Origin: Candidatus Shapirobacteria bacterium | GTDB lineage: Bacteria; Patescibacteriota; Microgenomatia; UBA12405 | NCBI GenBank assembly: GCA_041665485.1 | Contig: JBAYIT010000003.1 | Coordinates: 67,146-131,145 of the forward strand | Direction of reading: 5' to 3' | DNA: 64,000 nt | Shown: piece by piece, positions 7,694 to 64,000 of the stretch | Layout of the letters: each line of letters starts with the position of its first letter | Position numbering within the stretch: the first letter of the stretch is position 1 | Made by a program: the position numbers and the translations under genes | The notes under the pieces: model-generated | Told to the model about the DNA's origin: nothing | The model's input: the letters and a program-made list of their open reading frames with translations, nothing else | Databases searched by the model: none

Positions 7694-8043
7694 CAGTGAC
7701 AGGAGAACTTGTTTATCACCGCTGGGCTCTAGCCAAATTAGTTGCCCGATATGCCAGTGGTGGACTTTCTGTTGGAAATTCTGAAGTCGGAGGAATTGCT
7801 GGATATGTCGATAGGCAAATCGTTTTTTTTACAGAAAACAAACCGTCTCGCAGGCCTGGTCCTGTTCCAACCTCATACACCCTAGAACAGGCAAGACAGA
7901 TGTTGTCAACAATCTCCTCAAGGATTGGTGGTAGTCAAACGGTTGCCGTTAATATGGAAAAACTTGGCGTAACTTCGGAATTGATCAACTATCTTTATCA
8001 GGAAATTCTACCTCGCGCTTCGGTCACGAATTGGGATTCGTGA
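7678..8043 (+). CDS. Hypothetical protein (121 aa)
   Basis: It is an ORF only, with no motif. It overlaps the end of the GT2 gene by 16 nt and is followed by a strong intrinsic terminator. Confidence 0.3.
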   Translation: MEEKIAVTGELVYHRWALAKLVARYASGGLSVGNSEVGGIAGYVDRQIVFFTENKPSRRPGPVPTSYTLEQARQMLSTISSRIGGSQTVAVNMEKLGVTSELINYLYQEILPRASVTNWDS

Positions 8044-8050
8044 ATCAAAA

Positions 8051-8078
8051 ACCCGCCTCTTGCGAAGCGGGTTTTTTC
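8051..8078. terminator. Rho-independent terminator, bidirectional, between convergent genes
   Basis: The sequence is AAAAACCCGCctcttgcgaaGCGGGTTTTTT. A GC stem is flanked by an A-run on one side and a T-run on the other, so it can terminate either strand. Confidence 0.6.
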
Positions 8079-8114
8079 TAGATTCGTAAACTCTAGACTC
8101 GTAGATTCTTAACT

Positions 8115-8891: not shown

Positions 8892-8916
8892 TTTTTGCTA
8901 CTACGAGTATAGCAAT

Positions 8917-10011: not shown

Positions 10012-10039
10012 AATTTATTGCTATCATTAATATTACCTT

Positions 10040-34700: not shown

Positions 34701-34738
34701 ACTTTTTGGACTTTCTACTTTTTGGACTTTTTGGACTA
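34701..34738. repeat. (TTTTTGGACT)n direct repeat, right flank of GC-rich insert; supplies ArgS stop codon
   Basis: ACTTTTTGGACTTTCTACTTTTTGGACTTTTTGGACTA is read from the sequence. The ArgS TAG stop is the CTA at 34736-34738. Confidence 0.7.
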
Positions 34739-36421
34739 CATCCTCTCCACCACCTCAATCCCCAGCAACCCAAGTCCTTTCTTAATCGTCTGCGCTGTTT
34801 TTTGGGTTAGCCACAAGCGCCATTCTTCCTCCGGTTCGCCAATTATCCTATATTTATTATAAAACTCGTTGTATTTTCGAGCCAAGGCCAGAAGATATTC
34901 CGCCACCACCGATGGCGCCAGCCTCTCTCCCGCCTCAACTATCTTTTCCGGAAACTTCCCCAACTCCCTCACCACCCCCATTTCCTCTGCTTTTATATTT
35001 TCCAAATTCTTAGTTCTTAGCTCTGTGTTCTTAGTTCTAGATTTAGCGAGCAAGCTTGCGCAGCGAGCGTAGGTATATTGCAGGTACGGCCCCGAATCGC
35101 CATTCAAACTCATAATCTTGTCCCAATCAAAAATCACATCCTTTTTTGGGTCAGAAGATAGATCACTAAATTTCACCGCTCCGATTGCCACTGCTTTAAT
35201 CATTGCCTCTTTCTCTTCGGCCCCCATCTCTTTTGAAATTTTTGACGTTTCAGCAATCTCTCTGGCCGCTTTAATGGCGTTATCAATCACATCCGAAAGA
35301 TGGATAGTATCGCCTTTTCTGGTAGAAAATTTCCCAGTCGCCCAGCGAATCAGCCCGTGTCCAAGGTGATAAAACCCCTTTGATGGTTCCCAGCCCATTA
35401 ATTTCGCCGCCGCAAACACTTGCTTAAAATGCAAATTTTGTTCTGAGCCAACTTCGTAAACAATTAAATCCGGCTTCCAGGTTTCCATTCTATATTTAAT
35501 CGTTGCCAAATCACGGGTAAAGTAGGTCGTCGCATCGTCTGTTTTCAAAAGCATCGCCGGTGGCAAATCATCAAACTCAACGATCAAGGCTCCTTGGCTC
35601 TCGGAGGCCAACCCCCTCTTTTTGAATTCTTCCACAATCTCCTGCCACATCGACGAATAAAAAGCCTCGCCCAGAGCATAATCAATTTTTACTCCAAGCA
35701 TTTCATATACTCGGTTAAATTCTGCCAAAGATATGTCCACACATTTTTGCCAAATCTCTCCTGCTTCTTTATCTTTTTTCTCCAACTTGGCAAACCACTC
35801 TCGCCCCTCATCTTTTAATTTCTCGTCTTTTTCCGCTTCCTCGTGAAATCTAACATATAGTTTTTCTAGGTCCGCAATTGCCATCTCTTCCACTGGTTTG
35901 TCACCCCAATGTTTAATAGCACAAATCATTTTGCCAAACTGCGTTCCCCAATCGCCCAGGTGGTTGTCGCCAATGCATTTCCACCCCAAAGTTTGGTAAA
36001 TGTTATAAATTGCTTGGCCGATGTTGGTTGATCTTAGGTGGCCAATTCCAAACGGCTTGGCAATATTAGGAGCACTATAGTCAATCACCATTGTTTTCCC
36101 TTTACCTGTTTGGGGAATTTCTTGCTTTTCTGCACTTTCAATCAAATACTCCGGTTTTAAATAAAAATTAATATATCCCCCAACCACTTCAATTTTTTCT
36201 ATCACACCATCCGAAGCCTTGGCGAAGGATTGGTCTAGTTTTTCTTTTATTTCATTAGCAATTTCGACAGGGGATTTCTTTAATTCTTTGGCTAGTGTCA
36301 TTGCCACATTAGTGGTGTAATCGCCAAAATTCTCATTAGTTGTTCTGGTAACCTCCGCCTCATGTCCGGCTTGTTCTAATGCTTCTTTAATATATTTTAC
36401 TGCCATGGCTAATTCTACCAA
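34736..36421 (-). CDS. argS: Arginine--tRNA ligase
   Basis: The HIGH region is SAPNIAKPFGIGHLRS. The GDSGPYLQYTYAR region and a C-terminal DALR-type anticodon-binding domain are present. Length is 561 aa. Confidence 0.9.
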   Translation of the reverse strand: MVELAMAVKYIKEALEQAGHEAEVTRTTNENFGDYTTNVAMTLAKELKKSPVEIANEIKEKLDQSFAKASDGVIEKIEVVGGYINFYLKPEYLIESAEKQEIPQTGKGKTMVIDYSAPNIAKPFGIGHLRSTNIGQAIYNIYQTLGWKCIGDNHLGDWGTQFGKMICAIKHWGDKPVEEMAIADLEKLYVRFHEEAEKDEKLKDEGREWFAKLEKKDKEAGEIWQKCVDISLAEFNRVYEMLGVKIDYALGEAFYSSMWQEIVEEFKKRGLASESQGALIVEFDDLPPAMLLKTDDATTYFTRDLATIKYRMETWKPDLIVYEVGSEQNLHFKQVFAAAKLMGWEPSKGFYHLGHGLIRWATGKFSTRKGDTIHLSDVIDNAIKAAREIAETSKISKEMGAEEKEAMIKAVAIGAVKFSDLSSDPKKDVIFDWDKIMSLNGDSGPYLQYTYARCASLLAKSRTKNTELRTKNLENIKAEEMGVVRELGKFPEKIVEAGERLAPSVVAEYLLALARKYNEFYNKYRIIGEPEEEWRLWLTQKTAQTIKKGLGLLGIEVVERM

Positions 36422-49902: not shown

Positions 49903-49903
49903 T

Positions 49904-51355: not shown

Positions 51356-51982
51356 TTACGGCCCAATCTCTCCCACAAACGTTCTTGGATTCACTGGTAT
51401 TCCAAATACATTAATTTGGAAATGTAAATGTGGTCCAGTTGACCAGCCAGTTGTTCCTTCTTTGCCAATCACATCCCCGATTTTTACCTTTTGGCCTTTA
51501 TAAACCAACACTTTATCTAAGTGGCCATATAAGGAAGTCACATTATTCCCATGGTCAATAATTATGTGCTTGCCGTAGCCTATCGCCGTTTGAGCCGCAT
51601 AAGTTACTGTTCCATCCATAAAGGGAGTAATATCATCGCCAGTTTTTCCTTCGGGGTTAGCAATATCAATCCCAGTATGAAATAGTTGGTAGGGGAGATG
51701 AGGTTTGCCAAATTCCAAAGTTATTACCCCCTTAACCGGCCAGACCATTGGTGAAGAAATAACCTTAACAACCTTGCCACTGGCTGGATCATGAATGTCA
51801 ACCGTGTTGGTGGCTGAATCGACTGTCGCCAGCTTATCAGAAACAATGTTTATGCCCGTCTGGGTCAAAATAATAACGGCGATTACCGGCAACAATAAAA
51901 CCAAAAGAAAGGCAAAGATTACAATTTTTAACTCCCCTCGATACGACCAAAGGGCAAAAATGGTTCCAATTGGCATGGGCAT
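51356..51982 (-). CDS. M23-family metallopeptidase (LytM-like), membrane-anchored; likely T4SS-associated cell-wall hydrolase
   Basis: The zinc ligands are HTGIDI...HGNNVTSLYGHL...GPHLHF (H.GxD and HxH). Confidence 0.8.
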   Translation of the reverse strand: MPMPIGTIFALWSYRGELKIVIFAFLLVLLLPVIAVIILTQTGINIVSDKLATVDSATNTVDIHDPASGKVVKVISSPMVWPVKGVITLEFGKPHLPYQLFHTGIDIANPEGKTGDDITPFMDGTVTYAAQTAIGYGKHIIIDHGNNVTSLYGHLDKVLVYKGQKVKIGDVIGKEGTTGWSTGPHLHFQINVFGIPVNPRTFVGEIGP

Positions 51983-51983
51983 A

Positions 51984-53783: not shown

Positions 53784-54396
53784 AGTTGTTCTCCAATAGT
53801 TTTTGTAACGTTTGTCCGGTTAATGCCTGGGTTTTAATCTGTTCGGAATTATAGAAACTGTAAAATAAATCGAGTATCTCCAGGCTACTTAAAGTTTTGG
53901 CTTTCATCCCCAGTTTTTCCAAACCGCGAACGATAATATCTGTCAATAAATGTAGCTGTTCTTTCACTAACTGAAAGTCTTTATTTTTATCAGCATGCCT
54001 GTAGGGGACAACGATATAAAATTTTCGGGAAAGTATTTTGTTTCCGGCCACCAGGTTGGTTATAAAGTCACAATAGTTATCAATCTGATTCCGATAAGCT
54101 TTTTCTTTCTCGTTTTTTTTCGTTAGAGAAATTTCCTGTAAATAGCGGTCAATATCTACCTCACGAACCCGAACTAATATTTGCAACTGGCAAGGTAGGG
54201 AATTTAAAAAGTTTTGGAAACCATCAATTAATACATCTTGCTCCTCTTCGCTTTTCAGTTCAAAATTAATCGAAGAAGTTTCTAATAATACTCGATATTC
54301 TTGATTGAGAAGCACTAAAATATCGTCCTTAACTTCCTTAATTTCTATTTGTCGCCGACTACTTAATTTACTTTTTGATTTGTTTAAGAGCCACAT
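53776..54396 (-). CDS. Probable N-terminal portion of split VirB4
   Basis: Its 206 aa, added to the 599 aa ATPase, give about 805 aa, which is the typical VirB4 length. The two ORFs overlap by 8 nt in different frames. There is no independent motif. Confidence 0.35.
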   Translation of the reverse strand: MWLLNKSKSKLSSRRQIEIKEVKDDILVLLNQEYRVLLETSSINFELKSEEEQDVLIDGFQNFLNSLPCQLQILVRVREVDIDRYLQEISLTKKNEKEKAYRNQIDNYCDFITNLVAGNKILSRKFYIVVPYRHADKNKDFQLVKEQLHLLTDIIVRGLEKLGMKAKTLSSLEILDLFYSFYNSEQIKTQALTGQTLQKLLENNYV

Positions 54397-54880
54397 GCAA
54401 GCCTCCTTGTTTGCCTAACTTAAAACTTAAACTATTTTTTTGATTGTTGATGACATGTAAAAACTTTACCGATTCAACTTGGGCTAATTCGTTTTCTTTT
54501 CTGTCAACCGGCCTGGCAGAATTTACAGTCACTAATTTCCTTTTCTTTTCCATAATTGGTATCTCAATATCTCGAAGATAATTATCGTTCTTATTAAAAA
54601 TAAAATACATCGGTCGAACATTGAATCGCCATAAAATTAATAGCCAACTTAAAACCACCCTCCCCTTAATTCGGAGAGACAGAACTAAACACACAAACAA
54701 AACGATGACTATCAATGGCAGTTTGTACCAAGCCAATTTCATTACCGGTGGCACAAAAGCAAAAAGAACCGTTGTCCAAAAAATCGGGATCATCAGAATA
54801 AATATCTGCGTTATATTTAAGTTCCCGGCAATCTTATCTTCAACTGTGGTTATTTGAGCTGGAATTACCGTTGTCCTCAT
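54368..54880 (-). CDS. T4SS small membrane protein (VirB3/PrgI-like, tentative)
   Basis: Two or three TM helices are predicted. The gene sits immediately upstream of VirB4 on the same strand, which is the VirB3 position. Confidence 0.35.
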   Translation of the reverse strand: MRTTVIPAQITTVEDKIAGNLNITQIFILMIPIFWTTVLFAFVPPVMKLAWYKLPLIVIVLFVCLVLSLRIKGRVVLSWLLILWRFNVRPMYFIFNKNDNYLRDIEIPIMEKKRKLVTVNSARPVDRKENELAQVESVKFLHVINNQKNSLSFKLGKQGGLHVALKQIKK

Positions 54881-56184
54881 GCGTGAACCTCCTTTCGGGG
54901 CGATTTAGCCGTTGCTTTGGCGGTGGCCGAGTTTCTGGAGATCGAAGACGAATTGTCAGCCGTTATAACGTTGATTATTTGGCCTCCTAACTTTTTTAAC
55001 TTTCCATTACCAGAGGTATAAAACATCATGTTAGTTATTAATGAAGGGGTCTTAAGTAAGGTTAAAAATAGACCAATGGCCACGGCAATCGATATCAATG
55101 AGTTATTCGAGTGTTCCGGTAGGGCCAGAAACGACGACGCCAACTGAATCACCACCACATGCACAAAAACTATAAAAATAGTCGCCACATATGATTTAGT
55201 TGCAATTTCTGCAAAATCCGAAAACTTAGGTATTGTCCATAAAAGAAATACAAAAGGAGAAAGTACTGCCCCCAATGACACAAAAATTAACCTGGTTATA
55301 TACATGAAAAGTAAAACAATAGCCACGATTAAAAAGATAATTAAAAATATAAGAGTAATTAAAGGGGTGGTTCCGGTTATCAGAGTAGTTGGGTTGATAA
55401 TATTGACCACCCACGAGTGACTTAAGCCACCAGTCGAATTCAATACCGCACTAACCAAAGCGTTACAAGTAATGATTGTATAATCGGCCAAAAACAATGA
55501 GATGTTGGCGCCCAAAAAGAATAAGCCAAGCCGAGGCAAAATTTGTTTAAACTCGACTTCTTCAAAGCCAAAAGTATCAGCACTCATCAAATGAAGCCCC
55601 AAAACCGCCGCTACCACCACAAACAGCGAATCAACGATCCCCAACGATATCATCCAAAAATTAACGATTACCTGATTTGAGAGCAAATTCGGGGTAGTAG
55701 TCAGATAACCAAGGATGCCGTCAACAATCGGTCTGGTTGCACTCTCCACAATGTTTTGCATGAAAGCAGACATGGCATCAATTAATACTTGGGTTAATCC
55801 GTCACTTGGTTTAACTGAATTAAGGGGGGCGAGAGTGATCGCCGGAGTAGTTCCGCTACCCGACCCTGACGACAAAGCGTTGCTAAAAAGGGAAATTAAA
55901 ACTCCGGAGACGAGCACTATCACCAGGCCCATCATCGTATTTCGAATCGTTTGTTTGGCCGAGATTAATGATTGTGGATTACCACTTGAGGTTAAATATT
56001 GATAACCAGCTTTGATTAAGAAAAACACCCCCGCTATTCCCGCAATTGCCGTAATAATCGTTAAAGTATCATTGGTATAAGTCGTTATTTCACTTGCCGT
56101 CGTGACTGCTAGAACTTGCCTGGAGGCCGCCAAACTCATGCTTAAAAACCCAATCACAGATACTAGAACTCTTCGTAAGAACAT
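54877..56184 (-). CDS. Fusion of VirB2-like pilin N-domain with VirB6/TrbL-like polytopic membrane domain
   Basis: The first ~100 aa, IITAIAGIAGVFFLIKAGYQYLTSSGNPQSL...LVIVLVSG, parallel the adjacent pilin (GLISAGFFVWGGIGYITSSGNPEAL...LAIVLGA). At least six TM helices follow. Confidence 0.5.
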   Translation of the reverse strand: MFLRRVLVSVIGFLSMSLAASRQVLAVTTASEITTYTNDTLTIITAIAGIAGVFFLIKAGYQYLTSSGNPQSLISAKQTIRNTMMGLVIVLVSGVLISLFSNALSSGSGSGTTPAITLAPLNSVKPSDGLTQVLIDAMSAFMQNIVESATRPIVDGILGYLTTTPNLLSNQVIVNFWMISLGIVDSLFVVVAAVLGLHLMSADTFGFEEVEFKQILPRLGLFFLGANISLFLADYTIITCNALVSAVLNSTGGLSHSWVVNIINPTTLITGTTPLITLIFLIIFLIVAIVLLFMYITRLIFVSLGAVLSPFVFLLWTIPKFSDFAEIATKSYVATIFIVFVHVVVIQLASSFLALPEHSNNSLISIAVAIGLFLTLLKTPSLITNMMFYTSGNGKLKKLGGQIINVITADNSSSISRNSATAKATAKSPRKEVHA

Positions 56185-56193
56185 AAGAACACT

Positions 56194-56532
56194 TTATTGA
56201 GTTGTTGAACCACCAAAAGCACCGGTGGCCAATTGGGTTACTACCGTGGAGAGAACAAAAGCTCCCAAAACAATGGCTAAACCAATTGCTGAATAAAGGA
56301 TTGTTTTCTTTGATCGGTCTAAAGCTTCTGGATTACCAGAACTAGTAATATAACCAATTCCTCCCCAGACAAAAAAGCCAGCCGAAATTAGACCAGCCAG
56401 GGTTACTAACACCTGTATCACTCCTTGGATAAAGGTTTCGATCTTAATAACATCGGCCGACACCGCCAAGGTGGGTGTTGCCAAGAGAAGGAAAGATAGT
56501 AATGTACCGGAAAGTACCATTATCTTTTTCAT
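56194..56532 (-). CDS. VirB2/TrbC-like T4SS pilin
   Basis: A signal peptide precedes two hydrophobic helices with a conserved GGIGYITSSGNPE loop. Confidence 0.55.
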   Translation of the reverse strand: MKKIMVLSGTLLSFLLLATPTLAVSADVIKIETFIQGVIQVLVTLAGLISAGFFVWGGIGYITSSGNPEALDRSKKTILYSAIGLAIVLGAFVLSTVVTQLATGAFGGSTTQ

Positions 56533-56859: not shown

Positions 56860-56887
56860 TTGACATTTTGTAAATTAGTATTATATT
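56860..56887 (+). promoter_or_regulatory. Sigma70-like promoter for the ArgS-like gene cluster
   Basis: TTGACA (56860-56865), a 16-nt spacer and TATATT (56882-56887) lie about 30 nt upstream of the ATG at 56919. Confidence 0.35.
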
Positions 56888-56918: not shown

Positions 56919-59165
56919 ATGATCAAACAAGAACGAATAATTGACGGACCCGAAAGAGAGCATTTAATTGCTAAATTATGGAATGAAAGAAGAGGTCGTG
57001 TGCCTTCTCAATCACTTCAGTCTACTTCTTTATTTATTACAGTTCCATCAATGGATGTGTCAATAGATGAAGTGTTTAATGGACTACTTAATGCCATGGT
57101 CTCTTCAAACACAGACATGCTATATAAATGGGCAAGCAATTGGGGACAAACTAGAATTACGGTTCATGCTCAAAAAGGACTGTCTTTTCAATATATGAAT
57201 CGACTATCCAGAGAAGCTAAAAGTTACGAATTTTTGACAACAAATGCACTGATCGATCCGAAAAGAACTTTTGGAAATTCGCAAAACGATAATCATGCAA
57301 AATACCACATTCTTTTGGGTGATTCACCTGTGAGAATTGAAGGTGCAATACTACAAGCAGAAAGGATGATGGATGAGCTTGTTTGGTGTGTGAGCGAAAA
57401 GAAAAAACTTGAAGGGATGGGAGAGTTGGAAGCTTATGGAGCAGCTTTAACTGATGTAAAAGAAAATGGTTTCGACTTTAGATATGTTTCTGCGGAAGAC
57501 ATATTAGCACTAAAACAAGAAGAACCAGAATTGGCGGTGAGAATTTATGGTAATTTCTTGAATCGAGAAACGGTGCCTCAAATAGTAGGGGCAATTTGTC
57601 CCTTGGATAAAGAAATTACACTACCTGAAGAAAATCTCAGCGACCTACCTACAATTAGGGGTTTAGAAAAATCTCCCAAAAGCAGTGAAAAAAAGGAAAA
57701 TGTAGACAACCAAATTCCTTTTGTGGCAATAGGAATAACACTTGCTAAACAACCCCATATAGGTCATATGTTGTTGGCAAGTATTGCTGCTTCCACAAGC
57801 CGAATACTAGACAATGCACCCATATGTATTGATGGCAACGATACTGGACCTAGAGTCAATGCGGCTATCAAATATGGTGCGAGAGTATTGGGGGTTTCAA
57901 CGCAACAAGTTATAAAAGGTATAACGGACGGGACAATTGGGATTAGCACAGTGGAAGAGTGGTACAGAGACAGAAAAAATATTGATGATAGAACGATAAT
58001 TCAAGATTCGAAGATCGAGGGTGAGTTGTCTTTGGTTCAACAAGCAAGAAACACTCAAAGAATATTTAAAGATTTTTTTGGTGATAAATCAGATGTAAAG
58101 ATAATACTTGAGAGTCAAATATTGGAAGAAACCGATCAATATTTAGAAGTTGGTGATAGTTGTTGGTCAGGTACAGGTTTTAGCTGTATTAATATGGGCA
58201 ATAGATTACTCATTTTGGAAAGAGAGGGTAATCCATCTTCTGAAGCTATAAGAGCAACATTTATTGGATGTGCAGCAAAACAACTCCAAAGAGGGAAAGC
58301 TTACTTTGTTGATTCAGATCCTCAATTAAAGGATGTCTTTCATGTAAATAAATTAGCTACGAGTAAAGATAATGTTCAAATACCTGGAACTGCTATTGGA
58401 TTTAATTTTGAGATTGCTTCTGGTACTTCAGGTAATTCAATGCCCATGGAGGCATTTTTATCTTGGTATAAAGAGAAATATCCAAACTCAGATGTGGTTG
58501 CTGATATTTCATATTTGGTTCATACAAGATATCAAGTACTTCCTTTCAATGAACCTTCTTTCTTTAATTATAAGGACATTGAATCATTTTTAACTGATGT
58601 CCAACGCAGTCACGACGAGAGAACTATATTTATTAAGGAGACGGAAGGTGCTCTTTTTAAATTAAAAGAAAAGTTAAACGCTGATTCGGACAATACAAGT
58701 TTTTCAGGTGAAAAGAAAGAAAGAAAGAGAGGTCAATATGTCTTAAACATTCTAAGAGAAATTAAAGACTCTTTAATAAACGGAAGTGCGGAAGTTTATT
58801 CTCAAGCAGAAAACCTGAAAGAATCCCCAGAAGTTTGCCAAGCGATTGACTTAAAGGCAAATGAAAGACAAATAACTAAAGAGGAAGCGCGGTTAACAGT
58901 GCTTAAGGAAATAGCTTTGGATAATTCTAATCTAGATTCAAGATTCATAAATCAACTTAAAAATCAGGGTTTTAGGACTGGAGAAGAACTGGCAACTGCC
59001 TTGGAAGTTTTATGTTCCAGAGGTTTAGGATTAGCAAGGTTAACAAATGTTCTGTATGCAACGGCAAATTATTTAATAGAAGTTAGCAACAGAGTAGAAG
59101 TGATCGATAAGAACACCTTAAAAATGCTTAATAATTTACATGAAATTGTAGTCGGAAAAATATAA
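56919..59165 (+). CDS. Divergent class-I aaRS-like protein (ArgS-like HIGH region) with unique N-terminal ~270 aa
   Basis: FVAIGITLAKQPHIGHMLLASIAASTSRIL aligns with the ArgS HIGH region P.HVGH.......D.L.RLL. The genuine argS is elsewhere in the window. No clear KMSKS motif was found. Confidence 0.4.
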   Translation: MIKQERIIDGPEREHLIAKLWNERRGRVPSQSLQSTSLFITVPSMDVSIDEVFNGLLNAMVSSNTDMLYKWASNWGQTRITVHAQKGLSFQYMNRLSREAKSYEFLTTNALIDPKRTFGNSQNDNHAKYHILLGDSPVRIEGAILQAERMMDELVWCVSEKKKLEGMGELEAYGAALTDVKENGFDFRYVSAEDILALKQEEPELAVRIYGNFLNRETVPQIVGAICPLDKEITLPEENLSDLPTIRGLEKSPKSSEKKENVDNQIPFVAIGITLAKQPHIGHMLLASIAASTSRILDNAPICIDGNDTGPRVNAAIKYGARVLGVSTQQVIKGITDGTIGISTVEEWYRDRKNIDDRTIIQDSKIEGELSLVQQARNTQRIFKDFFGDKSDVKIILESQILEETDQYLEVGDSCWSGTGFSCINMGNRLLILEREGNPSSEAIRATFIGCAAKQLQRGKAYFVDSDPQLKDVFHVNKLATSKDNVQIPGTAIGFNFEIASGTSGNSMPMEAFLSWYKEKYPNSDVVADISYLVHTRYQVLPFNEPSFFNYKDIESFLTDVQRSHDERTIFIKETEGALFKLKEKLNADSDNTSFSGEKKERKRGQYVLNILREIKDSLINGSAEVYSQAENLKESPEVCQAIDLKANERQITKEEARLTVLKEIALDNSNLDSRFINQLKNQGFRTGEELATALEVLCSRGLGLARLTNVLYATANYLIEVSNRVEVIDKNTLKMLNNLHEIVVGKI

Positions 59166-60274
59166 TGCCAGAAAAGTTTTCATACTTCTTTGATTCTGAG
59201 AAATTTGCCTTACCTTTTGACGCCAAATGGATTGGTTCCTTGTCAATACTTTCAGGAGGACAGGTACAGACAACAATGATTCACTCCAGAGATGGTGTGA
59301 TTCACATATCACCGGCTTTAAGTAGAGAAACAAACGAAAATGAAGCAATTATTTGCAGCAGATGGATTCATCCTAAAAAAGGACTACTAACCGCAAATCA
59401 GCAAAATTTAGCTAAAAGTGACATTGTTACTATTCCTAAGGTAAAAGTTGTCGGAGATGTAAGGCCAAGAAACGGCGTTTCTTATCCCTTTTGGTTGGAA
59501 GAGGAAGTCGAAGGTAAATTACTAAATCAAGTAGTTTTAGAGGGAAAACCAACTTTGGGAATTTATAGGAAATTAGTAAAGTGGATGGCTGAGTTTCACT
59601 CGCCTACTGAAGGAAAAACCAGTCTTAAAGCCAACTACAATTGTAGATTGGGGTCTATCGAATCGATTTTAAAAAACGATGAAGAGTTGAGAAATTGCTT
59701 GGGTCCTCAACGTATTGAAGCAATTAATAGGCTATTAATTCTGGCAAAACAAAACATTGCAAGCTCGATTGACGAAAACGAATTAGTGGATAAAATTCAT
59801 GGCGACCTAAGAGGTAATAATGTCATGATAAATGAAAAAAGTGTCTCTGTGATCGACTTTGAACAAGGACTCTTCGGAGGAGATTGGTATTACGATTTAG
59901 AAAAGCTTTTACTAATTGAAAAACATGACCAACCAGATGTTAATAAGCCATATATGTATTTTCCAAATTTAAGCCAGAAACAAAAATATTCACTAGTCAA
60001 AACTTATTCGAAAGAAAGAGCAGCCAGAGGCTGGGAATTACCAACAATAATGCAGAATTACTTGAAAAGTCATGATCCGATTGCCTTTGAATCAAGAAGA
60101 CAACTTTATGATATTGAAAATGCTCTATCTATAATGATTTTTAGACATTTAATGGGCTGGGATTTTGGAATTAGTCCAGACGGGTCAAATAGAAGAGGTG
60201 TTAACTTTATTGCAGATTTAGTGATTCAAAATTATAATCACCTTATTTTCCAGAAAAACAATGAAACAGAATAA
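59165..60274 (+). CDS. APH/protein-kinase-like fold phosphotransferase
   Basis: The Brenner motif is IHGDLRGNNVMI and the DFE motif is VIDFEQG. Confidence 0.6.
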   Translation: MPEKFSYFFDSEKFALPFDAKWIGSLSILSGGQVQTTMIHSRDGVIHISPALSRETNENEAIICSRWIHPKKGLLTANQQNLAKSDIVTIPKVKVVGDVRPRNGVSYPFWLEEEVEGKLLNQVVLEGKPTLGIYRKLVKWMAEFHSPTEGKTSLKANYNCRLGSIESILKNDEELRNCLGPQRIEAINRLLILAKQNIASSIDENELVDKIHGDLRGNNVMINEKSVSVIDFEQGLFGGDWYYDLEKLLLIEKHDQPDVNKPYMYFPNLSQKQKYSLVKTYSKERAARGWELPTIMQNYLKSHDPIAFESRRQLYDIENALSIMIFRHLMGWDFGISPDGSNRRGVNFIADLVIQNYNHLIFQKNNETE

Positions 60275-61673
60275 TGAAATTAATATCCTAATAATCGGAG
60301 GAAGTGGTTTTTGGTCCGAAAAGAACCACTATCCTGCTATTCTCAAACTTCAAGAAAAGGGACTACCCGTAAAGGTCAGACTAATTTGTGATATTAGAAA
60401 TCCTCGTGAAGAGGCAAACCGAAAATATTTACCTGAAATATTTAGAATCAATGACCCAAAGTGGATTAATCCTAACGAGACAAGTTTGAACCAGCTTGGA
60501 AAAATTTGTAAAAAAGAGAAGATTAACATGGTGATTGTATCGACTAATCCGGCGTTTCATTATACCTACTGCAAATGGGCGGTGAAAAACAACTTAAATG
60601 TTTTGTGCGATAAACCTTTGGTGGTTAATTTTAATTCTGCTTCAGATATAAAAGCTGCAAGAAAAAACGAAAAGCTATATCAGGAATTAAAATCATTTGT
60701 ACTCAAAAAGCAACAAAAGAATAAGAGGTATTTATTCTGCTTACCCTTAAGAAGAAGAGTTTTGACGCCTTATGTATTTGTGGCAAAACAATTAGAGGCA
60801 GTTAACAAGAATACAGGAGAAGGAATCAGATATTTAAATATAATTGTAAACGGAGGAATATTTAAATACCCAATCGAGTTATTAGGCGGTGGATCGCATG
60901 GATATCTTGATGGCGTAGGATCATTGTCACATTCTAGTTATCACTATATTGATGTATTAGCTTGGTATCTCCAGGTTGCCCAAGGAAAGGCTAAAAAGAT
61001 AAAAATTAATTTGACAAATCTTATTCGGGTCCATGATTATTTAAGAACCAAAACTTATCAAAATTTAAGAAATATTGTTGAGGATGAATCAAATAATTTT
61101 GAAGACGAATTAGCATTGCCAGAACAAGTGCTAAACTCCGAGCTCGATTTTACATTTACTCTTAAGTTACTTGATGAAAACAATAATCAAGTAGGTATGG
61201 CTGAATATACTTGCAACCATACATCTTTTTGTCCCCGTGAAGTTAAATATCAACCAGGTGTATTGGAACCTGCAAATTACTTGCATGGCGGTAGAATGTC
61301 GCATGTATATCTTGATATCCATCAAGGAGCATTACAGAATTGGCAGATAATCAAAAATGATGTCGTGTTTGAGGGGAACAATATTACGGTTATTGGGCGA
61401 CAGCATCCATATGTTGGCAAAAAGTATATAAAAAAGGTGTTCAGGGATGCTTATGATAAAAATACATTAACACCAACTGATTTGATTGAATCATTCGTCA
61501 ATTATACTTTGGGAGAAAAATTATTAAGCAAGAAGATGAATTTACTATCCTCTTTTAATAACCAAGATCTGACCAACAAGATATTTTGCAAATTCTACGA
61601 AAAAATAGCTGAAGAATATTACAATCAAACACATAGACGAAAAATTCATATAAACTCAATTATAAATATTTAA
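60261..61673 (+). CDS. Gfo/Idh/MocA-family NAD(P)-dependent oxidoreductase
   Basis: A Rossmann motif ILIIGGSGF is at the N-terminus. The family motif VLCDKPL (EKP-like) is present, followed by a C-terminal alpha/beta domain. Confidence 0.55.
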   Translation: MKQNNEINILIIGGSGFWSEKNHYPAILKLQEKGLPVKVRLICDIRNPREEANRKYLPEIFRINDPKWINPNETSLNQLGKICKKEKINMVIVSTNPAFHYTYCKWAVKNNLNVLCDKPLVVNFNSASDIKAARKNEKLYQELKSFVLKKQQKNKRYLFCLPLRRRVLTPYVFVAKQLEAVNKNTGEGIRYLNIIVNGGIFKYPIELLGGGSHGYLDGVGSLSHSSYHYIDVLAWYLQVAQGKAKKIKINLTNLIRVHDYLRTKTYQNLRNIVEDESNNFEDELALPEQVLNSELDFTFTLKLLDENNNQVGMAEYTCNHTSFCPREVKYQPGVLEPANYLHGGRMSHVYLDIHQGALQNWQIIKNDVVFEGNNITVIGRQHPYVGKKYIKKVFRDAYDKNTLTPTDLIESFVNYTLGEKLLSKKMNLLSSFNNQDLTNKIFCKFYEKIAEEYYNQTHRRKIHINSIINI

Positions 61674-61679
61674 TAAATT

Positions 61680-62120
61680 ATGGACCAATGCGATTTCTGT
61701 GATTCAGAAGTATTAAAAAAACAAGGTGTTTATGAAGATGAATATATTATAGCTATATATCCACAAAAACCAATAATCTATCATCATTTTATAATATTTC
61801 CAAAAAGACATTCTCAGTTAGTAACTGAGATGACTGCTAAAGAAATTGCAGCAATGAACAAAGTTTTTGAGCGAATCTATAAAAATTATAAAAAGGAAAA
61901 CAAATGTATTGGTTACAATTTGTCTAGCAACAACGGATCTCCCAAGGTCGGACAAACAGTAGCCCATTGTCACTTCCATATTTATTTAAGGTTTGAAGAC
62001 GAAAAGGTGTCCCCCTATAAGGTCATGGGTGATATGTCGCTGAGGGATGTATTATCGGAAGATGAGTGGGAATTAAGAAAGAAAAAGGTTTCAGAAATAA
62101 TAAACAATAATGAAGTTTGA
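61680..62120 (+). CDS. HIT-family nucleotide hydrolase/transferase
   Basis: The histidine triad is HCHFHIY. An N-terminal CDFC is present. Confidence 0.75.
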   Translation: MDQCDFCDSEVLKKQGVYEDEYIIAIYPQKPIIYHHFIIFPKRHSQLVTEMTAKEIAAMNKVFERIYKNYKKENKCIGYNLSSNNGSPKVGQTVAHCHFHIYLRFEDEKVSPYKVMGDMSLRDVLSEDEWELRKKKVSEIINNNEV

Positions 62121-62796
62121 GACTACCGTAGGCGTTAAAAAGTTGTGTTTTGATTCTGAGGTTAATGGATTAATCGCTAATGGCCAAGAATATGAAATGA
62201 GTAATGATGGAGGATTAATTTATGACAAAGTTAAAGATATAAAGTCAGATCAAGTGACTACTCAAATGTCTTCTGACACCAGCACACTGATACCTAGCTT
62301 TATGATCCTGGATTGGGTATATAACCCATATTTTGACGAAAGAAATGTTGTTGAGTCGCAGAATGATATAACCTTTTATTGGAATAAATCTAAGCTTGCA
62401 GCTTTTTATAACCTTTATGCTACAGATGAACTCAAGTACAAAAAGAGAGAAGAAACAATAAGAGATGCCATAAATTTCTTATTAAGCACTAGCAAAGACT
62501 TAAGGTTAAACGATGAATATCTCAATAAGTTATCTGAACCATGTATTTTGGTTGGTTTCTTTCAGGGTTTTCCAGTTTTTGATAGTTCCAAAGGATTGGC
62601 AAAATTACAATCTAGACTAGGCATCCATATCGATTCTGAGTCGATAATGATATCGACACCATTGGATAAATATGAGGGCGATATTTATGATTTAGCCGAA
62701 AAAATATCTGATTTAACGGGCGAAACTTTTAATAGAAAAAAGAATAGAGTTGTTTTTTGTAAAAGCAACAAAATGCTTGAATTAATAACAAAATGA
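62110..62796 (+). CDS. Hypothetical protein (228 aa), last gene of cluster
   Basis: It is an ORF only. It overlaps the HIT gene by 11 nt, suggesting an operon. Confidence 0.35.
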   Translation: MKFETTVGVKKLCFDSEVNGLIANGQEYEMSNDGGLIYDKVKDIKSDQVTTQMSSDTSTLIPSFMILDWVYNPYFDERNVVESQNDITFYWNKSKLAAFYNLYATDELKYKKREETIRDAINFLLSTSKDLRLNDEYLNKLSEPCILVGFFQGFPVFDSSKGLAKLQSRLGIHIDSESIMISTPLDKYEGDIYDLAEKISDLTGETFNRKKNRVVFCKSNKMLELITK

Positions 62797-63223
62797 AAAT
62801 TGCAATTTTAGATAATTATTTTCTTAATGAGTCCAATTATAGAGACTATATTTTTTATACTCTACTTGATGCAGAGTATAAAAAATGAATTATAAAGTCA
62901 TCCGGTTTCAGAAAAAATCATTTTCACACAATATATATTTTGAGAATCTCAAGAATAGCTGATACTACGTATCCGGAAAATGTTTTCTATCTTTTTTATA
63001 AAGATTCTTTTAATTTTAGGTTTACTTATATTATTCTTTCCTACCGGCTGAGCCACATTTTACTCCAACAAAGTTGAGCTCGATTGGCTTTTAAGGGTTT
63101 GCACCTACTCATTTCACAAGGGTTTCGAACTGACCTCTATATAACCTCACTCTATATTTTAAAACATTAAATTTTAAAAAAAAGGGAAAATGGAACTTTT
63201 GGTATGATTCATACATGGCTAAT

Positions 63224-64000
63224 TCACAAAAAAGTGACTTAAAAGAAATCAAAGATTTCTTAACATCGAACTTCAGTGACAATATTGGAGATGTCTTACA
63301 ACTTAATTGTGGCGAAAGGTCGAAAGCTTTTTCCTTTGTCTCATGTGGAATTAAATATGTTTTTAGAATGAACAACCACGACAATGGATTTAAAAAAGAC
63401 GAATTTGCCTTTAAACACTTTTCCGAAAAAGTACCGATACCAAAAATATTAAAAATTGGTACATTCAAAGACAGCTTTTATTCAATTTCCGGATTATGTC
63501 TTGGTAACCCGCTTATTGATGGCAATAAAGAGCTGCCGTCTGTACAAGTCGAAAGCATTATTTCTGCCGCCGATCAAATTCATTCGGTTTCAGTTCCGAA
63601 GTTTACAAACTTTGGCGTCGCCGACATAAACGGAGCTGCCGTATATAAAAGTTGGGAAAAATGGATTTTTAAAAAAAACACGGTCGTTACTAAGGACGAT
63701 GGCAGCTTTTATTCTTGGGAAGAAGTTGAAAAAATCCCGTTTGTAGATGAAAAAACTATTAAAAGCTTAGCTGTTCAAATTAAAAAATTGGTCCATTTTG
63801 TTCCTGAGGAAAGATACCTAATTCACGGTGATTTTGGTCCGGGCAATATCATGATCAATAATGATTTAGTTACCGGTGTGATTGACTGGAATGAATTTGG
63901 TTATGGTGATTTCCTTTTTGATATTGCCTGGCTGGATTTCTGGATATCCAAAACCAATTTTTCTAAAGCTTATAAAAGCCATTTTCAAAAGAAGAATCAA
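63224..64000 (+). CDS. Aminoglycoside-phosphotransferase (APH)-family kinase, partial (runs off window end)
   Basis: Translation from the ATG at 63224 gives ...YLIHGDFGPGNIMINNDLVTGVIDWNEFGYGDFLFDIAWL..., the classic APH HGD...N / IDW..D motifs. It is absent from the ORF track only because no stop falls within the window. Confidence 0.65.

What the first reader, a model, noticed from the sequence alone, without database searches (positions are those of the whole stretch)
56919..64000. Operon encoding a divergent ArgS-like HIGH-motif enzyme with two APH-like kinases, a Gfo/Idh/MocA oxidoreductase and a HIT protein
A second, highly divergent arginyl-tRNA-synthetase-like catalytic core has a unique ~270 aa N-terminus; the genuine argS is at 34736..36421. 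It heads a tightly packed, translationally coupled + strand cluster with a kinase, a dehydrogenase, a HIT phosphoramidase/nucleotidyltransferase, an unknown protein and a second APH kinase. Extra aaRS-like genes next to HIT and kinase genes are classic in two settings: biosynthesis of, or immunity to, aminoacyl-nucleotide antibiotics (microcin C, albomycin, agrocin-like), and aminoglycoside-type pathways. The cluster could therefore be a small biosynthetic or immunity locus. Such a locus would be unexpected in a reduced genome.
Basis: partly seen in the sequence, partly recalled or inferred. Interest (0 to 1): 0.7.

Follow-up and report, generated by a model that had tools for sequence, protein, structure and literature searches.

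The report
ArgRS-derived ligase with kinase and HIT
A tiny-genome bacterium carries an unannotated enzyme that has the predicted fold of an arginyl-tRNA synthetase but a remodelled substrate pocket, and it almost always sits next to a HIT nucleotide hydrolase and usually a dedicated kinase, which points to an undescribed non-translational pathway.

Summary
ORFs g1 to g5 (56919-62796, + strand) are tightly packed behind a near-consensus promoter.

g1 belongs to a rare family of 109 clusters with no annotation in any library searched. The named relatives come from Candidate Phyla Radiation bacteria and one 'Woesearchaeota' assembly. In 14 distinct loci a HIT gene is adjacent in 12 and a dedicated kinase in 9. 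Gfo/Idh/MocA recurs in 3, and radical SAM and phosphoesterase genes appear sporadically.

The second APH-like gene (63215 onward) follows a 418-nt gap, belongs to another kinase family and is not co-conserved. g5 has no detectable similarity to genes in the other loci.

The biosynthesis-or-immunity reading for an aminoacyl-nucleotide antibiotic is neither shown nor excluded. My best reading is an ArgRS-derived adenylate-forming ligase working with HIT and kinase partners. Its substrate and acceptor (small molecule, nucleotide or tRNA) remain unresolved.

The parts
56860..56887 (+). Promoter-like site TTGACA-16-TATATT, 31 nt upstream of the g1 start codon
   Evidence: 11 of 12 matches. This is a consensus match only. 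Such sites are not enriched in the region (21 found against 29.5 expected).
56919..59165 (+). g1: 748-aa ArgRS-derived class I aaRS-fold protein. It has an N-domain with no detectable relatives outside the family (aa 1 to about 235), a linker (about 236-265), a Rossmann catalytic core (about 266-553) and a helical C-domain (about 554-748).
57747..57767 (+). HIGH signature with the preceding lysine: K277-Q-P-H280-I-G-H283
   Evidence: Column counts in the 90-sequence alignment: K277 90/90, H280 89, G282 89, H283 90. It aligns with ArgRS 'AKPFGIGH' or 'NKELHVGH'.
58416..58433 (+). A500-S-G-T-S-G505, the equivalent of the ArgRS 'FSTRKG' (KMSKS-type) loop, without the basic residues
   Evidence: S501 84/90, G502 83/90, G505 81/90. 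It aligns with ArgRS 'MSGRKG' or 'FSTRKG'. Those alignments are not statistically significant on their own.
59165..60274 (+). g2: 369-aa eukaryotic-like (APH, RIO or Bud32-type) kinase dedicated to this module. Catalytic loop H212-G-D-L-R-G-N-N219 (59798-59821) and I230-D-F-E-Q-G235 (59852-59869).
   Evidence: Pfam APH 22.7 bits (cut-off 23.2), TCAD9 and RIO1 weak. Orthologues sit next to g1 relatives in 8 other loci (27-52% identity). A profile against PDB matches only the catalytic loop (protein kinases and Rio2 at 3e-4, spectinomycin phosphotransferase at 4.5e-3).
60261..61673 (+). g3: 470-aa Gfo/Idh/MocA-family oxidoreductase, a recurrent accessory gene. It has an NAD-binding N-terminus and a 'CDKP' variant of the EKP motif.
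   Evidence: PF01408, 47.6 bits. Orthologues occupy the same position in L001 (71% identity) and L011/L012 (36%).
61680..62120 (+). g4: 146-aa HIT protein, the most constant partner of g1. Histidine triad H96-C-H98-F-H100-I-Y at 61965-61985.
   Evidence: PF01230, 55.9 bits. PDB HIT proteins 2e-13, Fhit 2e-6, Hint1 3e-4. A HIT gene is adjacent to the g1 relative in 12 of 14 distinct loci.
62110..62796 (+). g5: 228-aa protein with no detectable relatives. It is translationally coupled to g4, and no similar gene was found in the other loci.
   Evidence: No hit in Pfam, NCBIfam, PADLOC or PDB. No similarity to the genes that follow HIT in other loci.
63215..64000 (+). g6: partial APH-family phosphotransferase, most similar to APH(4)-Ia. 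It is adjacent to the module but not part of it.
   Evidence: Translation. PF01636 57.7 bits and NF000107 116 bits (cut-off 725). It follows a 418-nt gap with its own weak promoter-like site at 63130-63158. It shares only the catalytic loop with g2 (E 0.004) and is not found by the g2-family HMM.

Best explanation
**What g1 is.** g1 is a highly diverged descendant of arginyl-tRNA synthetase. It keeps the ATP-handling half of the class I active site: HxGH plus the lysine before it. Its amino-acid pocket is remodelled and its N-terminal domain has been replaced.

**Proposed mechanism.** I propose that g1 no longer serves translation. It would be an ATP-dependent adenylate-forming ligase that activates a carboxylate (an amino acid or a similar compound) as acyl-AMP. 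It would then transfer the acyl group to a hydroxyl or amine acceptor in a specialised small-molecule or nucleotide pathway.

**Partners.**
- The HIT enzyme cleaves an AMP-linked species, either the acyl-adenylate or an adenylylated by-product or product. Its role would be proofreading, recycling or self-protection.
- The dedicated kinase phosphorylates the substrate, product or acceptor.
- Lineage-specific accessory enzymes tailor the acceptor. These are a Gfo/Idh/MocA dehydrogenase here, and a class IV aminotransferase, radical SAM enzymes, a PHP phosphoesterase, a histidine phosphatase and a P-loop kinase elsewhere.

**Shown.** The predicted fold, the motif conservation and the gene linkage.

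**Inferred.** Catalytic activity, the nature of the substrate and acceptor, and the roles of HIT and kinase.

For: **Active site.** K277, H280, G282 and H283 are conserved in 89-90 of 90 sequences. N307, R312, Y349, R352, D465 and G490 are conserved in at least 87 of 90.

**Alignment to ArgRS.** A collinear 233-column alignment runs from the HIGH motif to the MSTRKG-type loop. The HIGH region and the MSGRKG-type loop also align with T. thermophilus ArgRS.

**Remodelled pocket.** ArgRS N118, Y299 and D303 are invariant in 33 ArgRS sequences. They map to T274, to Ala or Ser at position 441, and to Arg or a hydrophobic residue at position 445.

**Not a housekeeping enzyme.** A bona fide argS is present in the same window. 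The family is rare and patchy: 109 clusters among 1.84 billion representatives.

**Module linkage.** HIT is adjacent in 12 of 14 distinct loci and the g2-type kinase in 9 of 14. This includes a rearranged, convergent arrangement in L010. Divergence of g1, kinase and HIT is roughly parallel.

**Accessory small-molecule and nucleotide enzymes recur.**
- Gfo in 3 loci.
- Orthologous radical SAM genes in L002 and L006 (48% identity).
- A 6PF2K-like protein in L006 and L018.
- PHP, His_Phos_1 and Aminotran_4 in single loci.

**Precedents.** MshC and Glu-Q-RS, both class I aaRS paralogues used as ligases, appear among the fold matches. That Hint-type HIT enzymes hydrolyse aminoacyl-adenylates is established knowledge, recalled here and not tested.
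Against: - No enzymatic data exist.
- Homology to ArgRS is not significant by any sequence method. It depends on a predicted structure.
- The pocket mapping rests on a non-significant alignment, so arginine cannot be strictly excluded as substrate.
- The KMSKS-equivalent loop has lost its basic residues, which might mean low or no adenylation activity.
- The accessory enzymes differ from locus to locus, so no single pathway can be reconstructed.
- One relative (L014) lies between an apparent Arg-specifier T-box with tRNA-Arg and the genuine argS. This favours a tRNA-linked role.
- The kinase resembles protein, RIO and Bud32-type kinases as much as small-molecule kinases.
Confidence: 0.4

Rival explanations
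1. The module acts on tRNA. g1 still binds a tRNA, possibly tRNA-Arg. It would aminoacylate or otherwise modify the 3' end or a modified base, as Glu-Q-RS does, or act as a stress back-up or partner of ArgRS. HIT would proofread aminoacyl-adenylates, and the kinase would act as a Bud32- or RIO-like ATPase or kinase partner.
For: - Foldseek alignments to ArgRS span 530-595 columns, which suggests an ArgRS-like overall layout including a helical C-domain.
- Glu-Q-RS is among the fold matches.
- In L014 the same-strand order is IleRS, T-box leader (61 bits, E 8.7e-13, with a terminator and a specifier I read as CGA = Arg), tRNA-Arg(TCT), a 136-nt tRNA-like element, the g1 relative, HIT, and the genuine ArgRS.
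- L005 and L013 lie next to nusA-infB.
- The kinase motifs HGDLRGNN and IDFEQG resemble the RIO and Bud32 type, with weak hits to both.
Against: - The C-terminal domain is the least conserved part. Many relatives align only up to about residue 580, and only G684 is nearly invariant there.
- The ArgRS N-terminal tRNA-binding domain is replaced.
- No T-box or tRNA gene lies next to g1 in the window or in 11 other loci.
- The accessory genes (Gfo, aminotransferase, PHP) are not typical tRNA-modification partners.
- The family's rarity argues against a core translational role.
Confidence: 0.3
2. The locus protects against an aminoacyl-nucleotide (microcin C, albomycin or agrocin-like) or aminoglycoside-type antibiotic. 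HIT would cleave the toxic adenylate analogue, the kinases would inactivate the drug, and g1 would be a drug-insensitive or decoy synthetase.
For: - The HIT fold is the one used by the MccH-type hydrolases that cleave processed microcin C (recalled knowledge).
- g6 is an APH(4)-like phosphotransferase.
- The locus lies in a low-GC variable region with restriction-modification and type IV secretion genes.
Against: - g1 is not a functional duplicate of any housekeeping aaRS. It has no sequence similarity and an altered pocket, so it cannot replace an inhibited target.
- g6 is not co-conserved.
- HIT and kinase co-diverge with g1 across distant lineages, as expected for a pathway and not for a drug-specific resistance cassette.
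- No efflux pump, acetyltransferase or peptidase of the known immunity types is in the block.
Confidence: 0.1
3. The module is an anti-phage or abortive-infection defence system. An aaRS-like sensor or effector works with a kinase and a HIT nucleotide hydrolase, for example to make or destroy a nucleotide signal or to disable tRNA.
For: - Several loci lie among defence or mobile genes: restriction-modification, an SMC-like ATPase and DUF2130, and type IV secretion genes in the window.
- L006 has Abi_C, a UvrD helicase and a methyltransferase.
- L011 has Fic and Mrr.
- L018 has an M78 peptidase with an HTH gene, a methyltransferase and T5orf172.
- The HIT protein hits the PADLOC ThsC model at 3.7e-9.
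- A small radical SAM protein with weak viperin similarity lies nearby in L002 and L006.
Against: - No PADLOC model matches g1, g3 or g5, and g2 matches only at E 0.014. The ThsC hit is generic HIT similarity.
- Other loci are embedded in housekeeping genes (L005, L013, L014).
- Dehydrogenase and aminotransferase partners are unusual for defence systems.
- The family is not found on viral contigs, which is neutral evidence.
Confidence: 0.1
4. The cluster is a chance juxtaposition of unrelated genes, or g1 is a decaying pseudo-enzyme with no function.
For: - g5 and g6 are not conserved with g1.
- The KMSKS-type loop is degenerate.
Against: - Synteny of g1 with HIT and kinase holds across 14 loci down to 24% identity, including a rearranged locus.
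- About 15 catalytic-core positions are at least 90% conserved in 90 sequences.
- A split-gene version keeps both halves adjacent (L007).
Confidence: 0.03

Closest known systems
Arginyl-tRNA synthetase (class I; Pfam tRNA-synt_1d + DALR_1 + Arg_tRNA_synt_N)
   Same: - The motifs are collinear: AK-P-H-x-GH, N-D-x-G, L-x-K-x-G, V-D, and G-F...S-G/T-x-x-G.
- The lysine before HIGH is invariant. As I recall, this lysine is catalytically crucial in ArgRS enzymes that lack the KMSK lysine.
   Different: - No significant sequence similarity.
- No Pfam or TIGRFAM hit.
- The ~100-aa Add-1 N-domain is replaced by a ~235-aa domain with no detectable relatives outside the family, which can be a separate gene (L007).
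- By a tentative alignment the arginine-binding Asn, Tyr and Asp are replaced.
- The MSTRKG loop has lost Arg and Lys.
- The C-domain is poorly conserved.
- It coexists with a normal argS.
- It is linked to HIT and kinase genes.
MshC (cysteine:GlcN-Ins ligase, a CysRS paralogue) and Glu-Q-RS (YadB, a GluRS paralogue)
   Different: Both are readily recognised by sequence as CysRS- or GluRS-like. Neither has the added N-domain or a conserved HIT and kinase neighbourhood. The parent lineage here is ArgRS.
Hint/HIT with lysyl-tRNA synthetase (hydrolysis of aaRS-made aminoacyl-adenylates; Ap4A signalling)
   Same: A HIT nucleotide hydrolase is functionally paired with an aaRS-type adenylate-forming enzyme. 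g4 is a canonical HxHxHxx HIT protein.
   Different: As I recall, that pairing involves housekeeping enzymes and not a dedicated operon. Here HIT is genetically fixed next to a non-canonical aaRS-like gene. ArgRS-type enzymes are not known Ap4A producers (recalled knowledge).
Puromycin, A201A, cystocin and 3'-amino-3'-deoxyguanosine pathways (Pur10 NAD-dependent NTP 3'-dehydrogenase, Pur4 aminotransferase, Pur7 Nudix, Pur3 phosphatase, Pur6 amino-acid coupling enzyme; PMC11641026, PMC9239236)
   Same: They combine an NAD-dependent dehydrogenase, an aminotransferase, phosphohydrolases and an amino-acid-coupling enzyme to make an aminoacyl-tRNA 3'-end mimic. The same enzyme classes are scattered over the loci found here.
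   Different: - No sequence comparison with the Pur proteins could be made.
- Pur6 has a different, unknown fold.
- I recall Pur4 as a DegT-type enzyme, not class IV.
- Gfo is present in only 3 of 14 loci and an aminotransferase in one.
- There is no Nudix gene or transporter inside the block.

Membership tests
Arginyl-tRNA synthetase (ArgRS) | Significant match to the family sequence models (Pfam PF00750 tRNA-synt_1d, TIGR00456 argS) | tested here: not met
   No Pfam or NCBIfam hit for g1 at E<=0.1. There was also no Pfam hit in 10 other family members. The window's real ArgRS scores 307.8 bits.
Arginyl-tRNA synthetase (ArgRS) | Class I Rossmann catalytic fold with ArgRS as nearest structural neighbour | tested here: met
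   [not shown]
Arginyl-tRNA synthetase (ArgRS) | HIGH signature and the lysine preceding it | tested here: met
   K277 90/90, H280 89/90, G282 89/90, H283 90/90. It aligns with ArgRS AKPFGIGH.
Arginyl-tRNA synthetase (ArgRS) | KMSKS-type loop (MSTRKG in ArgRS) with basic residue(s) | tested here: not met
   The equivalent is A-S-G-T-S-G at 500-505. S501, G502 and G505 are conserved. The Arg position is Thr or Ser (89/90), and the next position is Lys in only 32/90.
Arginyl-tRNA synthetase (ArgRS) | Arginine-binding residues (Asn before HIGH; Tyr and Asp of the Y-x-T-R-D motif) | tested here: not met
   ArgRS N118, Y299 and D303 are invariant. They align with T274 (80/90 Thr), position 441 (Ala 54, no Tyr) and position 445 (Arg 34, otherwise hydrophobic, no Asp). 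The underlying alignment is not statistically significant, so the result is tentative.
Arginyl-tRNA synthetase (ArgRS) | DALR anticodon-binding domain and Arg_tRNA_synt_N (Add-1) domain | tested here: inconclusive
   No PF05746 or PF03485 hit. A helical C-domain is present in the model and Foldseek alignments to ArgRS are 530-595 columns long. Its sequence is poorly conserved. The N-domain has no detectable relatives outside the family.
Arginyl-tRNA synthetase (ArgRS) | tRNA-Arg-dependent arginine activation and charging | not testable with these tools
   This needs ATP-PPi exchange and aminoacylation assays.
HIT superfamily (g4) | HIT domain above Pfam threshold with an intact HxHxHxx triad | tested here: met
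   PF01230 scores 55.9 bits against a 21.5 cut-off. H96-C-H98-F-H100-I-Y is read from the sequence. The triad is kept in all 11 partner HIT proteins.
APH / eukaryotic-like kinase fold (g2) | Pfam APH above threshold; catalytic HxDxxxxN loop and metal-binding Asp | tested here: inconclusive
   APH scores 22.7 bits, just below the 23.2 cut-off. H212-G-D214...N219 and D231 are invariant in 8 orthologues. The profile matches protein, RIO and APH kinases about equally. No canonical beta-3 lysine was identified.
Gfo/Idh/MocA oxidoreductases (g3) | N-terminal NAD-binding Rossmann domain of the family | tested here: met
   PF01408 scores 47.6 bits against a 24 cut-off. No specific NCBIfam equivalog is reached; the best is IolG at 21.6 bits against 355.
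Aminoacyl-nucleotide antibiotic loci (microcin C type) | MccB-type (ThiF/E1) adenylyltransferase, precursor peptide, export and immunity genes | tested here: not met
   None of g1 to g6 hits such families. A 31-aa ORF at 62793-62888 exists but shows no evidence of being a precursor peptide.
Self-resistance aaRS copies (e.g. AgnB2, IleRS2, extra SerRS) | A full-length, sequence-recognisable paralogue of the targeted housekeeping aaRS | tested here: not met
   g1 against the window's ArgRS gives BLASTP E 3.1. There is no PDB sequence hit to any aaRS at E<0.07.
Known anti-phage defence systems (PADLOC) | Match of the signature proteins to a catalogued system | tested here: not met
   Only a generic HIT match to ThsC (3.7e-9) was found. 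There was nothing for g1, g3 or g5.

The most novel reading that the evidence does not exclude
The g1 + HIT (with or without kinase) module is a previously unrecognised use of an aminoacyl-tRNA-synthetase scaffold in ultra-small symbiotic microbes. Two versions are open.
- It aminoacylates a free adenosine-type nucleotide or 3'-modified nucleotide to make a puromycin-like mimic of the aminoacyl-tRNA 3' end. Dehydrogenase, aminotransferase, radical SAM and phosphoesterase partners would tailor the ribose, and HIT and kinase would handle activation or self-protection.
- It is a new tRNA-Arg-linked pathway co-regulated with argS, as suggested by the T-box, tRNA-Arg, g1-like, HIT, argS array in L014.
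Probability: 0.15. Interest if true: 0.85.

Novelty: new variant of a known kind. Interest (0 to 1): 0.65.

Why it matters
Paralogues of aminoacyl-tRNA synthetases are a known source of new chemistry. Examples are mycothiol synthesis, queuosine glutamylation, EF-P lysylation and cyclodipeptide formation. No ArgRS-derived paralogue family turned up in the searches made here. A 2022 review of aaRS duplications and aaRS-like proteins that I searched does not discuss ArgRS at all.

This family is invisible to Pfam and NCBIfam. It nevertheless gives a high-confidence predicted structure and keeps its ATP-site residues. It is fixed next to a HIT enzyme and usually a dedicated kinase in organisms with minimal genomes, where every retained pathway is likely to matter for the symbiotic lifestyle.

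Finding its substrate would define a new enzyme activity. It could also reveal either a new nucleotide or amino-acid metabolite of Candidate Phyla Radiation organisms or a new layer of tRNA biology.

Tried and rejected
**Searches that gave nothing or only insignificant results.**
- Single-sequence AF2 of g1 was useless (pLDDT 35.7).
- Sequence routes to ArgRS all failed to reach significance: phmmer against PDB, BLASTP against the window's ArgRS, and hhalign with 2, 90 and domain-cut alignments against an ArgRS alignment.
- The word-indexed 5.8-billion-protein search found only one homologue.
- DNA-pattern scans of the genome and metagenome collections found 0, 0, 1 and 2 loci. The scan of viral contigs found none.
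- The afdb50 fold library was unavailable.
- The N-domain gave no PDB or Pfam match, only 4 stand-alone homologues with no fused domains, and no sign of internal duplication with the catalytic core. The recurring weak hhalign match of the N-domain to the ArgRS HIGH region (E 0.03-0.15) is treated as noise.
- g5 gave nothing anywhere.
- No known RNA motif lies upstream of g1 or in the g5-g6 gap.
- No T-box lies near g1 relatives other than in L014.
- Literature searches for an aaRS-like + HIT + kinase system returned nothing relevant.
- Cluster-member look-ups gave taxon names for only two proteins: Komeilibacteria and an unclassified bacterium.

**Readings rejected.**
- g1 as a resistant ArgRS copy.
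- g6 as part of the operon.
- The six genes as one conserved block.

Full report
**1. What is in the sequence**

The + strand from 56919 onward carries five tightly packed ORFs:
- g1 56919-59165 (748 aa)
- g2 59165-60274 (369 aa)
- g3 60261-61673 (470 aa)
- g4 61680-62120 (146 aa)
- g5 62110-62796 (228 aa)

Their junctions are a 1-nt overlap, a 14-nt overlap, a 6-nt gap and an 11-nt overlap. A sixth gene, g6, starts at 63215 after a 418-nt gap and runs off the window end.

A TTGACA-16-TATATT promoter-like site lies 31 nt upstream of g1. It is a consensus match only. Upstream, on the opposite strand, are type IV secretion genes: a pilin, a VirB6-like protein, a VirB4/TraG ATPase and an M23 peptidase.

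G+C falls from 0.43 in the first 36.5 kb to 0.37 and then to 0.34 across g1-g5. That low-GC stretch also holds a restriction-modification pair and other variable genes.

The organism is a Candidatus Shapirobacteria bacterium, a member of the Candidate Phyla Radiation. The window's genuine ArgRS (34736-36421, - strand; Pfam 307.8 bits) is 100% identical to a protein so named by NCBI, on a 183-kb contig.

**2. Domain calls**

Pfam and NCBIfam give the following:
- g3 is a Gfo/Idh/MocA oxidoreductase (47.6 bits).
- g4 is a HIT protein (55.9 bits). Its triad H96-x-H98-x-H100 is intact.
- g6 is an APH-family phosphotransferase. Its best match is APH(4)-Ia at 116 bits, far below the 725-bit cut-off.
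- g2 is only a borderline APH match (22.7 bits against 23.2), with weak RIO, Bud32 and TCAD9 hits.
- g1 and g5 hit nothing in Pfam, NCBIfam, PADLOC or PHROGs at any meaningful level; g5's best is a PHROG at E 0.048.

**3. Is g1 ArgS-like?**

By sequence statistics it is not:
- phmmer against PDB finds no synthetase.
- BLASTP against the window's ArgRS gives E 3.1.
- Profile-profile comparisons give E of about 0.1.

The insignificant alignments nevertheless always pair the same motifs, so I turned to structure.

A full HMMER scan of 1.84 billion cluster representatives found 109 relatives. A 90-sequence alignment of these raised the AlphaFold2 model from pLDDT 35.7 to 93.4, with pTM 0.91.

Fold searches with that model gave consistent results:
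- Foldseek against PDB returns 55 hits at E<=1e-3. All are class I synthetases or MshC. The first 12 are all ArgRS (E 6.4e-9 to 1.2e-6), followed by CysRS, GluRS, MshC and class I LysRS.

The family profile against PDB sequences also picks T. thermophilus ArgRS (E 0.074). It aligns both the HIGH region and the 'MSGRKG' loop.

With the N-domain removed, hhalign gives a collinear 233-column alignment to an ArgRS alignment:
- TLAKQPHIGH with NIAKPFGIGH
- GNDTGPR with GDNHLGDWGTQ
- ILEREGNPSSEAIRA with LLKTDDATTYFTRDLA
- IASGTSG with KFSTRKG

**4. Anatomy of g1**

- Residues 1 to about 235 form an alpha/beta domain with its own conserved residues (W71, G76, E141, D152, R208, Y210, G211). It has no relatives in PDB or Pfam.
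- In some genomes this domain is a separate gene placed directly upstream of the core (L007).
- Residues about 236-265 are a low-confidence linker.
- Residues about 266-553 are the Rossmann catalytic core.
- Residues about 554-748 are helical.

Conservation in the 90-sequence alignment:

| Position | Count of 90 |
|---|---|
| K277 | 90 |
| H280 | 89 |
| G282 | 89 |
| H283 | 90 |
| N307 | 88 |
| R312 | 88 |
| Y349 | 90 |
| R352 | 88 |
| D465 | 87 |
| G490 | 89 |
| S501 | 84 |
| G502 | 83 |
| G505 | 81 |

The invariant lysine just before HIGH aligns with the lysine of ArgRS 'AKPFH' or 'NKELH'. From memory (Sekine et al. 2001, not checked here), that lysine is catalytically essential in ArgRS enzymes lacking the KMSK lysine.

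The KMSKS-equivalent loop keeps Ser and Gly but has lost the Arg and Lys.

The three residues that I recall as contacting arginine in yeast ArgRS are N118, Y299 and D303 in the window's enzyme. They are invariant in 33 ArgRS sequences. In g1 they align with T274, with position 441 (Ser in the window protein, Ala in 54 of 90 sequences) and with position 445 (Arg in the window protein, Arg or hydrophobic across the family). The family has no Tyr at 441 and no Asp at 445.

This mapping rests on a non-significant alignment, so it is tentative. It argues that the substrate is not arginine.

The C-terminal domain is the least conserved part of the protein.

**5. Are the neighbours linked?**

Yes, but not all of them. 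I collected contexts for relatives at 24-57% identity. I then scanned every locus with HMMs of g1, g2, g3 and g4. The survey covers 14 distinct loci.

| Partner | Loci where it is adjacent | Notes |
|---|---|---|
| HIT | 12 | L001's contig ends too early. In L013 g1 is at a contig edge with no HIT downstream. |
| g2-type kinase | 9 | Window, L001, L002, L003, L005, L006, L010, L011, L018 |
| g3-type Gfo/Idh/MocA | 3 | Window, L001, L011. Same order each time: g1, kinase, Gfo, then HIT where the contig extends far enough (window, L011). |

In L010, from a 'Candidatus Woesearchaeota' assembly, HIT and kinase lie on the opposite strand, convergent with g1. Conserved proximity despite this rearrangement is strong evidence of a functional link.

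Partner identities fall roughly in parallel with g1 identity. For kinase and HIT respectively:
- L001: 52%, HIT not available
- L002: 36% and 44%
- L005: 40% and 34%
- L003: 33% and 33%
- L010: 31% and 32%
- L011: 27% and 32%

Other genes recur only sporadically:
- Orthologous small radical SAM proteins in L002 and L006 (48% identity) and a different one in L018.
- A 6PF2K-like protein of about 435 aa in L006 and L018.
- A PHP phosphoesterase in L002.
- A histidine phosphatase in L018.
- A class IV aminotransferase in L011.

g5 shows no similarity to the genes that follow HIT in other loci. g6 shares only the kinase catalytic loop with g2 (E 0.004) and is missed by the g2-family HMM. Neither g5 nor g6 belongs to the conserved module.

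**6. Distribution**

The family is rare. The scan found 109 clusters at 50% identity among 1.84 billion representatives. Only one relative turned up in 185,579 species-representative genomes, and none on viral contigs.

Where a source names the protein, it is called hypothetical. The named organisms are Candidatus Shapirobacteria, Candidatus Komeilibacteria, an unclassified bacterium and the 'Woesearchaeota' assembly.

Some loci sit among defence or mobile genes (window, L006, L011, L018). Others sit among housekeeping genes, such as nusA-infB in L005 and L013 and ileS and argS in L014.

**7. A tRNA-flavoured clue**

In L014 the same-strand order is as follows:
1. IleRS.
2. A T-box leader at 7190-7463. 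It scores 61.3 bits, below Rfam's gathering score of 93, but E is 8.7e-13 in the local search and the whole model is matched. It has the GAGUGGUACCGUG box and a clear terminator helix followed by a T-run.
3. tRNA-Arg(TCT).
4. A 136-nt tRNA-like element with an acceptor stem and T-arm (folding z-score -4.5).
5. The g1 relative.
6. HIT.
7. A genuine ArgRS carrying an N-terminal B3_4 domain.

I read the 3' side of the specifier loop as AAA-CGA-G, an arginine codon. If this is one transcript, the g1-like and HIT genes are co-regulated with argS by uncharged tRNA-Arg.

This is a single locus. No T-box or tRNA gene lies next to g1 in the window or in 11 other loci.

**8. Interpretation**

Three things are shown:
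- a predicted class I, ArgRS-like fold;
- an ATP site under strong constraint;
- a conserved gene module of g1 + HIT, with or without the kinase.

The rest is inferred. I think g1 is an adenylate-forming ligase that has left translation, as MshC and Glu-Q-RS have. The HIT enzyme would act on an AMP-linked species, and the kinase would phosphorylate a substrate, product or acceptor. The variable dehydrogenase, aminotransferase, radical SAM and phosphoesterase partners point to a small-molecule or nucleotide acceptor that differs between lineages (confidence 0.4).

The main rival is a tRNA-directed function (0.3). It is supported by the overall ArgRS-like layout, by the L014 array and by the RIO/Bud32-like look of the kinase.

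g1 cannot substitute for a housekeeping synthetase, and no known immunity or biosynthesis hallmark is present.

A defence-system reading (0.1) has only contextual support and no specific PADLOC match to a catalogued system.

An attractive but unproven idea links the enzyme classes scattered over these loci to 3'-aminonucleoside pathways. In puromycin, cystocin and 3'-amino-3'-deoxyguanosine synthesis, an NAD-dependent NTP 3'-dehydrogenase, an aminotransferase, phosphohydrolases and an amino-acid-coupling enzyme build a mimic of the aminoacyl-tRNA 3' end (PMC11641026, PMC9239236). A synthetase scaffold is by its nature an enzyme that acylates the ribose of adenosine.

**9. Verdict**

The gene block, the HIGH motif, the unique N-terminus and the ArgRS-like fold are real. 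The second APH and the KMSKS motif are not.
The linkage is real, and a biosynthetic role is possible but unproven. Immunity is unlikely, and the five-gene block is not the conserved unit.
- The family appears to be undescribed. It has no Pfam or NCBIfam model and I found no relevant paper.
- I rate it a new variant of a known kind, namely aaRS paralogues recruited to other chemistry, with interest 0.65.

Noticed in passing
L014:7190-7463 (T-box), 7597-7670 (tRNA-Arg), 7678-7813 (tRNA-like), 8001-10831 (g1-like + HIT), 10898 onward (ArgRS): A T-box leader lies upstream of tRNA-Arg(TCT), an odd 136-nt tRNA-like element, the g1 relative, HIT, and a genuine ArgRS, all on one strand. The leader scores 61 bits, below Rfam's gathering score, but has a clear antiterminator and terminator. 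I read its specifier as CGA (Arg). No other locus has it.
   Followed up: partly
L014:10898-13321; proteins P0111, P0113, P0115, P0119, P0121, P0124: Many ArgRS of Shapirobacteria-like Candidate Phyla Radiation bacteria carry an N-terminal B3_4 domain (PF03483), giving proteins of about 690-830 aa. This may be a built-in editing domain, by analogy with the stand-alone B3/B4 canavanyl-tRNA deacylase that I recall. The window's own ArgRS lacks it.
   Followed up: no
window:62793-62888 (+): A 31-aa ORF (MKIAILDNYFLNESNYRDYIFYTLLDAEYKK) starts in an ATGA overlap with the g5 stop codon. It could be a coupled small peptide or chance.
   Followed up: no
window:56685-56699: A G+C-only palindrome, GGCGCC-TGG-GGCGCC, lies in the otherwise AT-rich divergent intergenic region between the type IV secretion pilin gene and g1. 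It has no T-run, so it is not a canonical terminator. It may be an operator or a processing site.
   Followed up: no
window:36500-64000: G+C drops from about 0.43 to 0.33-0.37 for the last 27 kb. This stretch mixes phosphoglucomutase, Nudix, GNAT, HD and P-loop kinase genes with an SMC-like + DUF2130 pair (44414-48222, -), a C5-methylase + NgoFVII-like restriction pair (48808-50920, +) and type IV secretion genes (51356-56532, -). It is probably a variable or acquired region. No integrase was identified.
   Followed up: partly
L014:7539-7565 and 7702-7728: A hairpin motif, GACCCGCC-NNN-GGCGGGCAAT(T)GGAT, occurs twice. One copy is upstream of tRNA-Arg and one is inside the tRNA-like element.
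   Followed up: no
window:56919-57623 (g1 residues 31-114): Three hhalign runs placed the g1 N-domain segment 'SLFITVPS...YKWASNWGQTRITV' on the ArgRS HIGH/'GDWGTQ' region (E 0.03-0.15, probability below 2%). A direct test for internal duplication with the g1 catalytic core was negative. This is probably noise.
   Followed up: yes
window:63215-64000 (+): g6 is an APH(4)-Ia-like phosphotransferase (NCBIfam 116 bits against a 725-bit cut-off) with its own weak promoter-like site. It is cut off by the window end. Its substrate is unknown and it is unrelated to the conserved module.
   Followed up: partly
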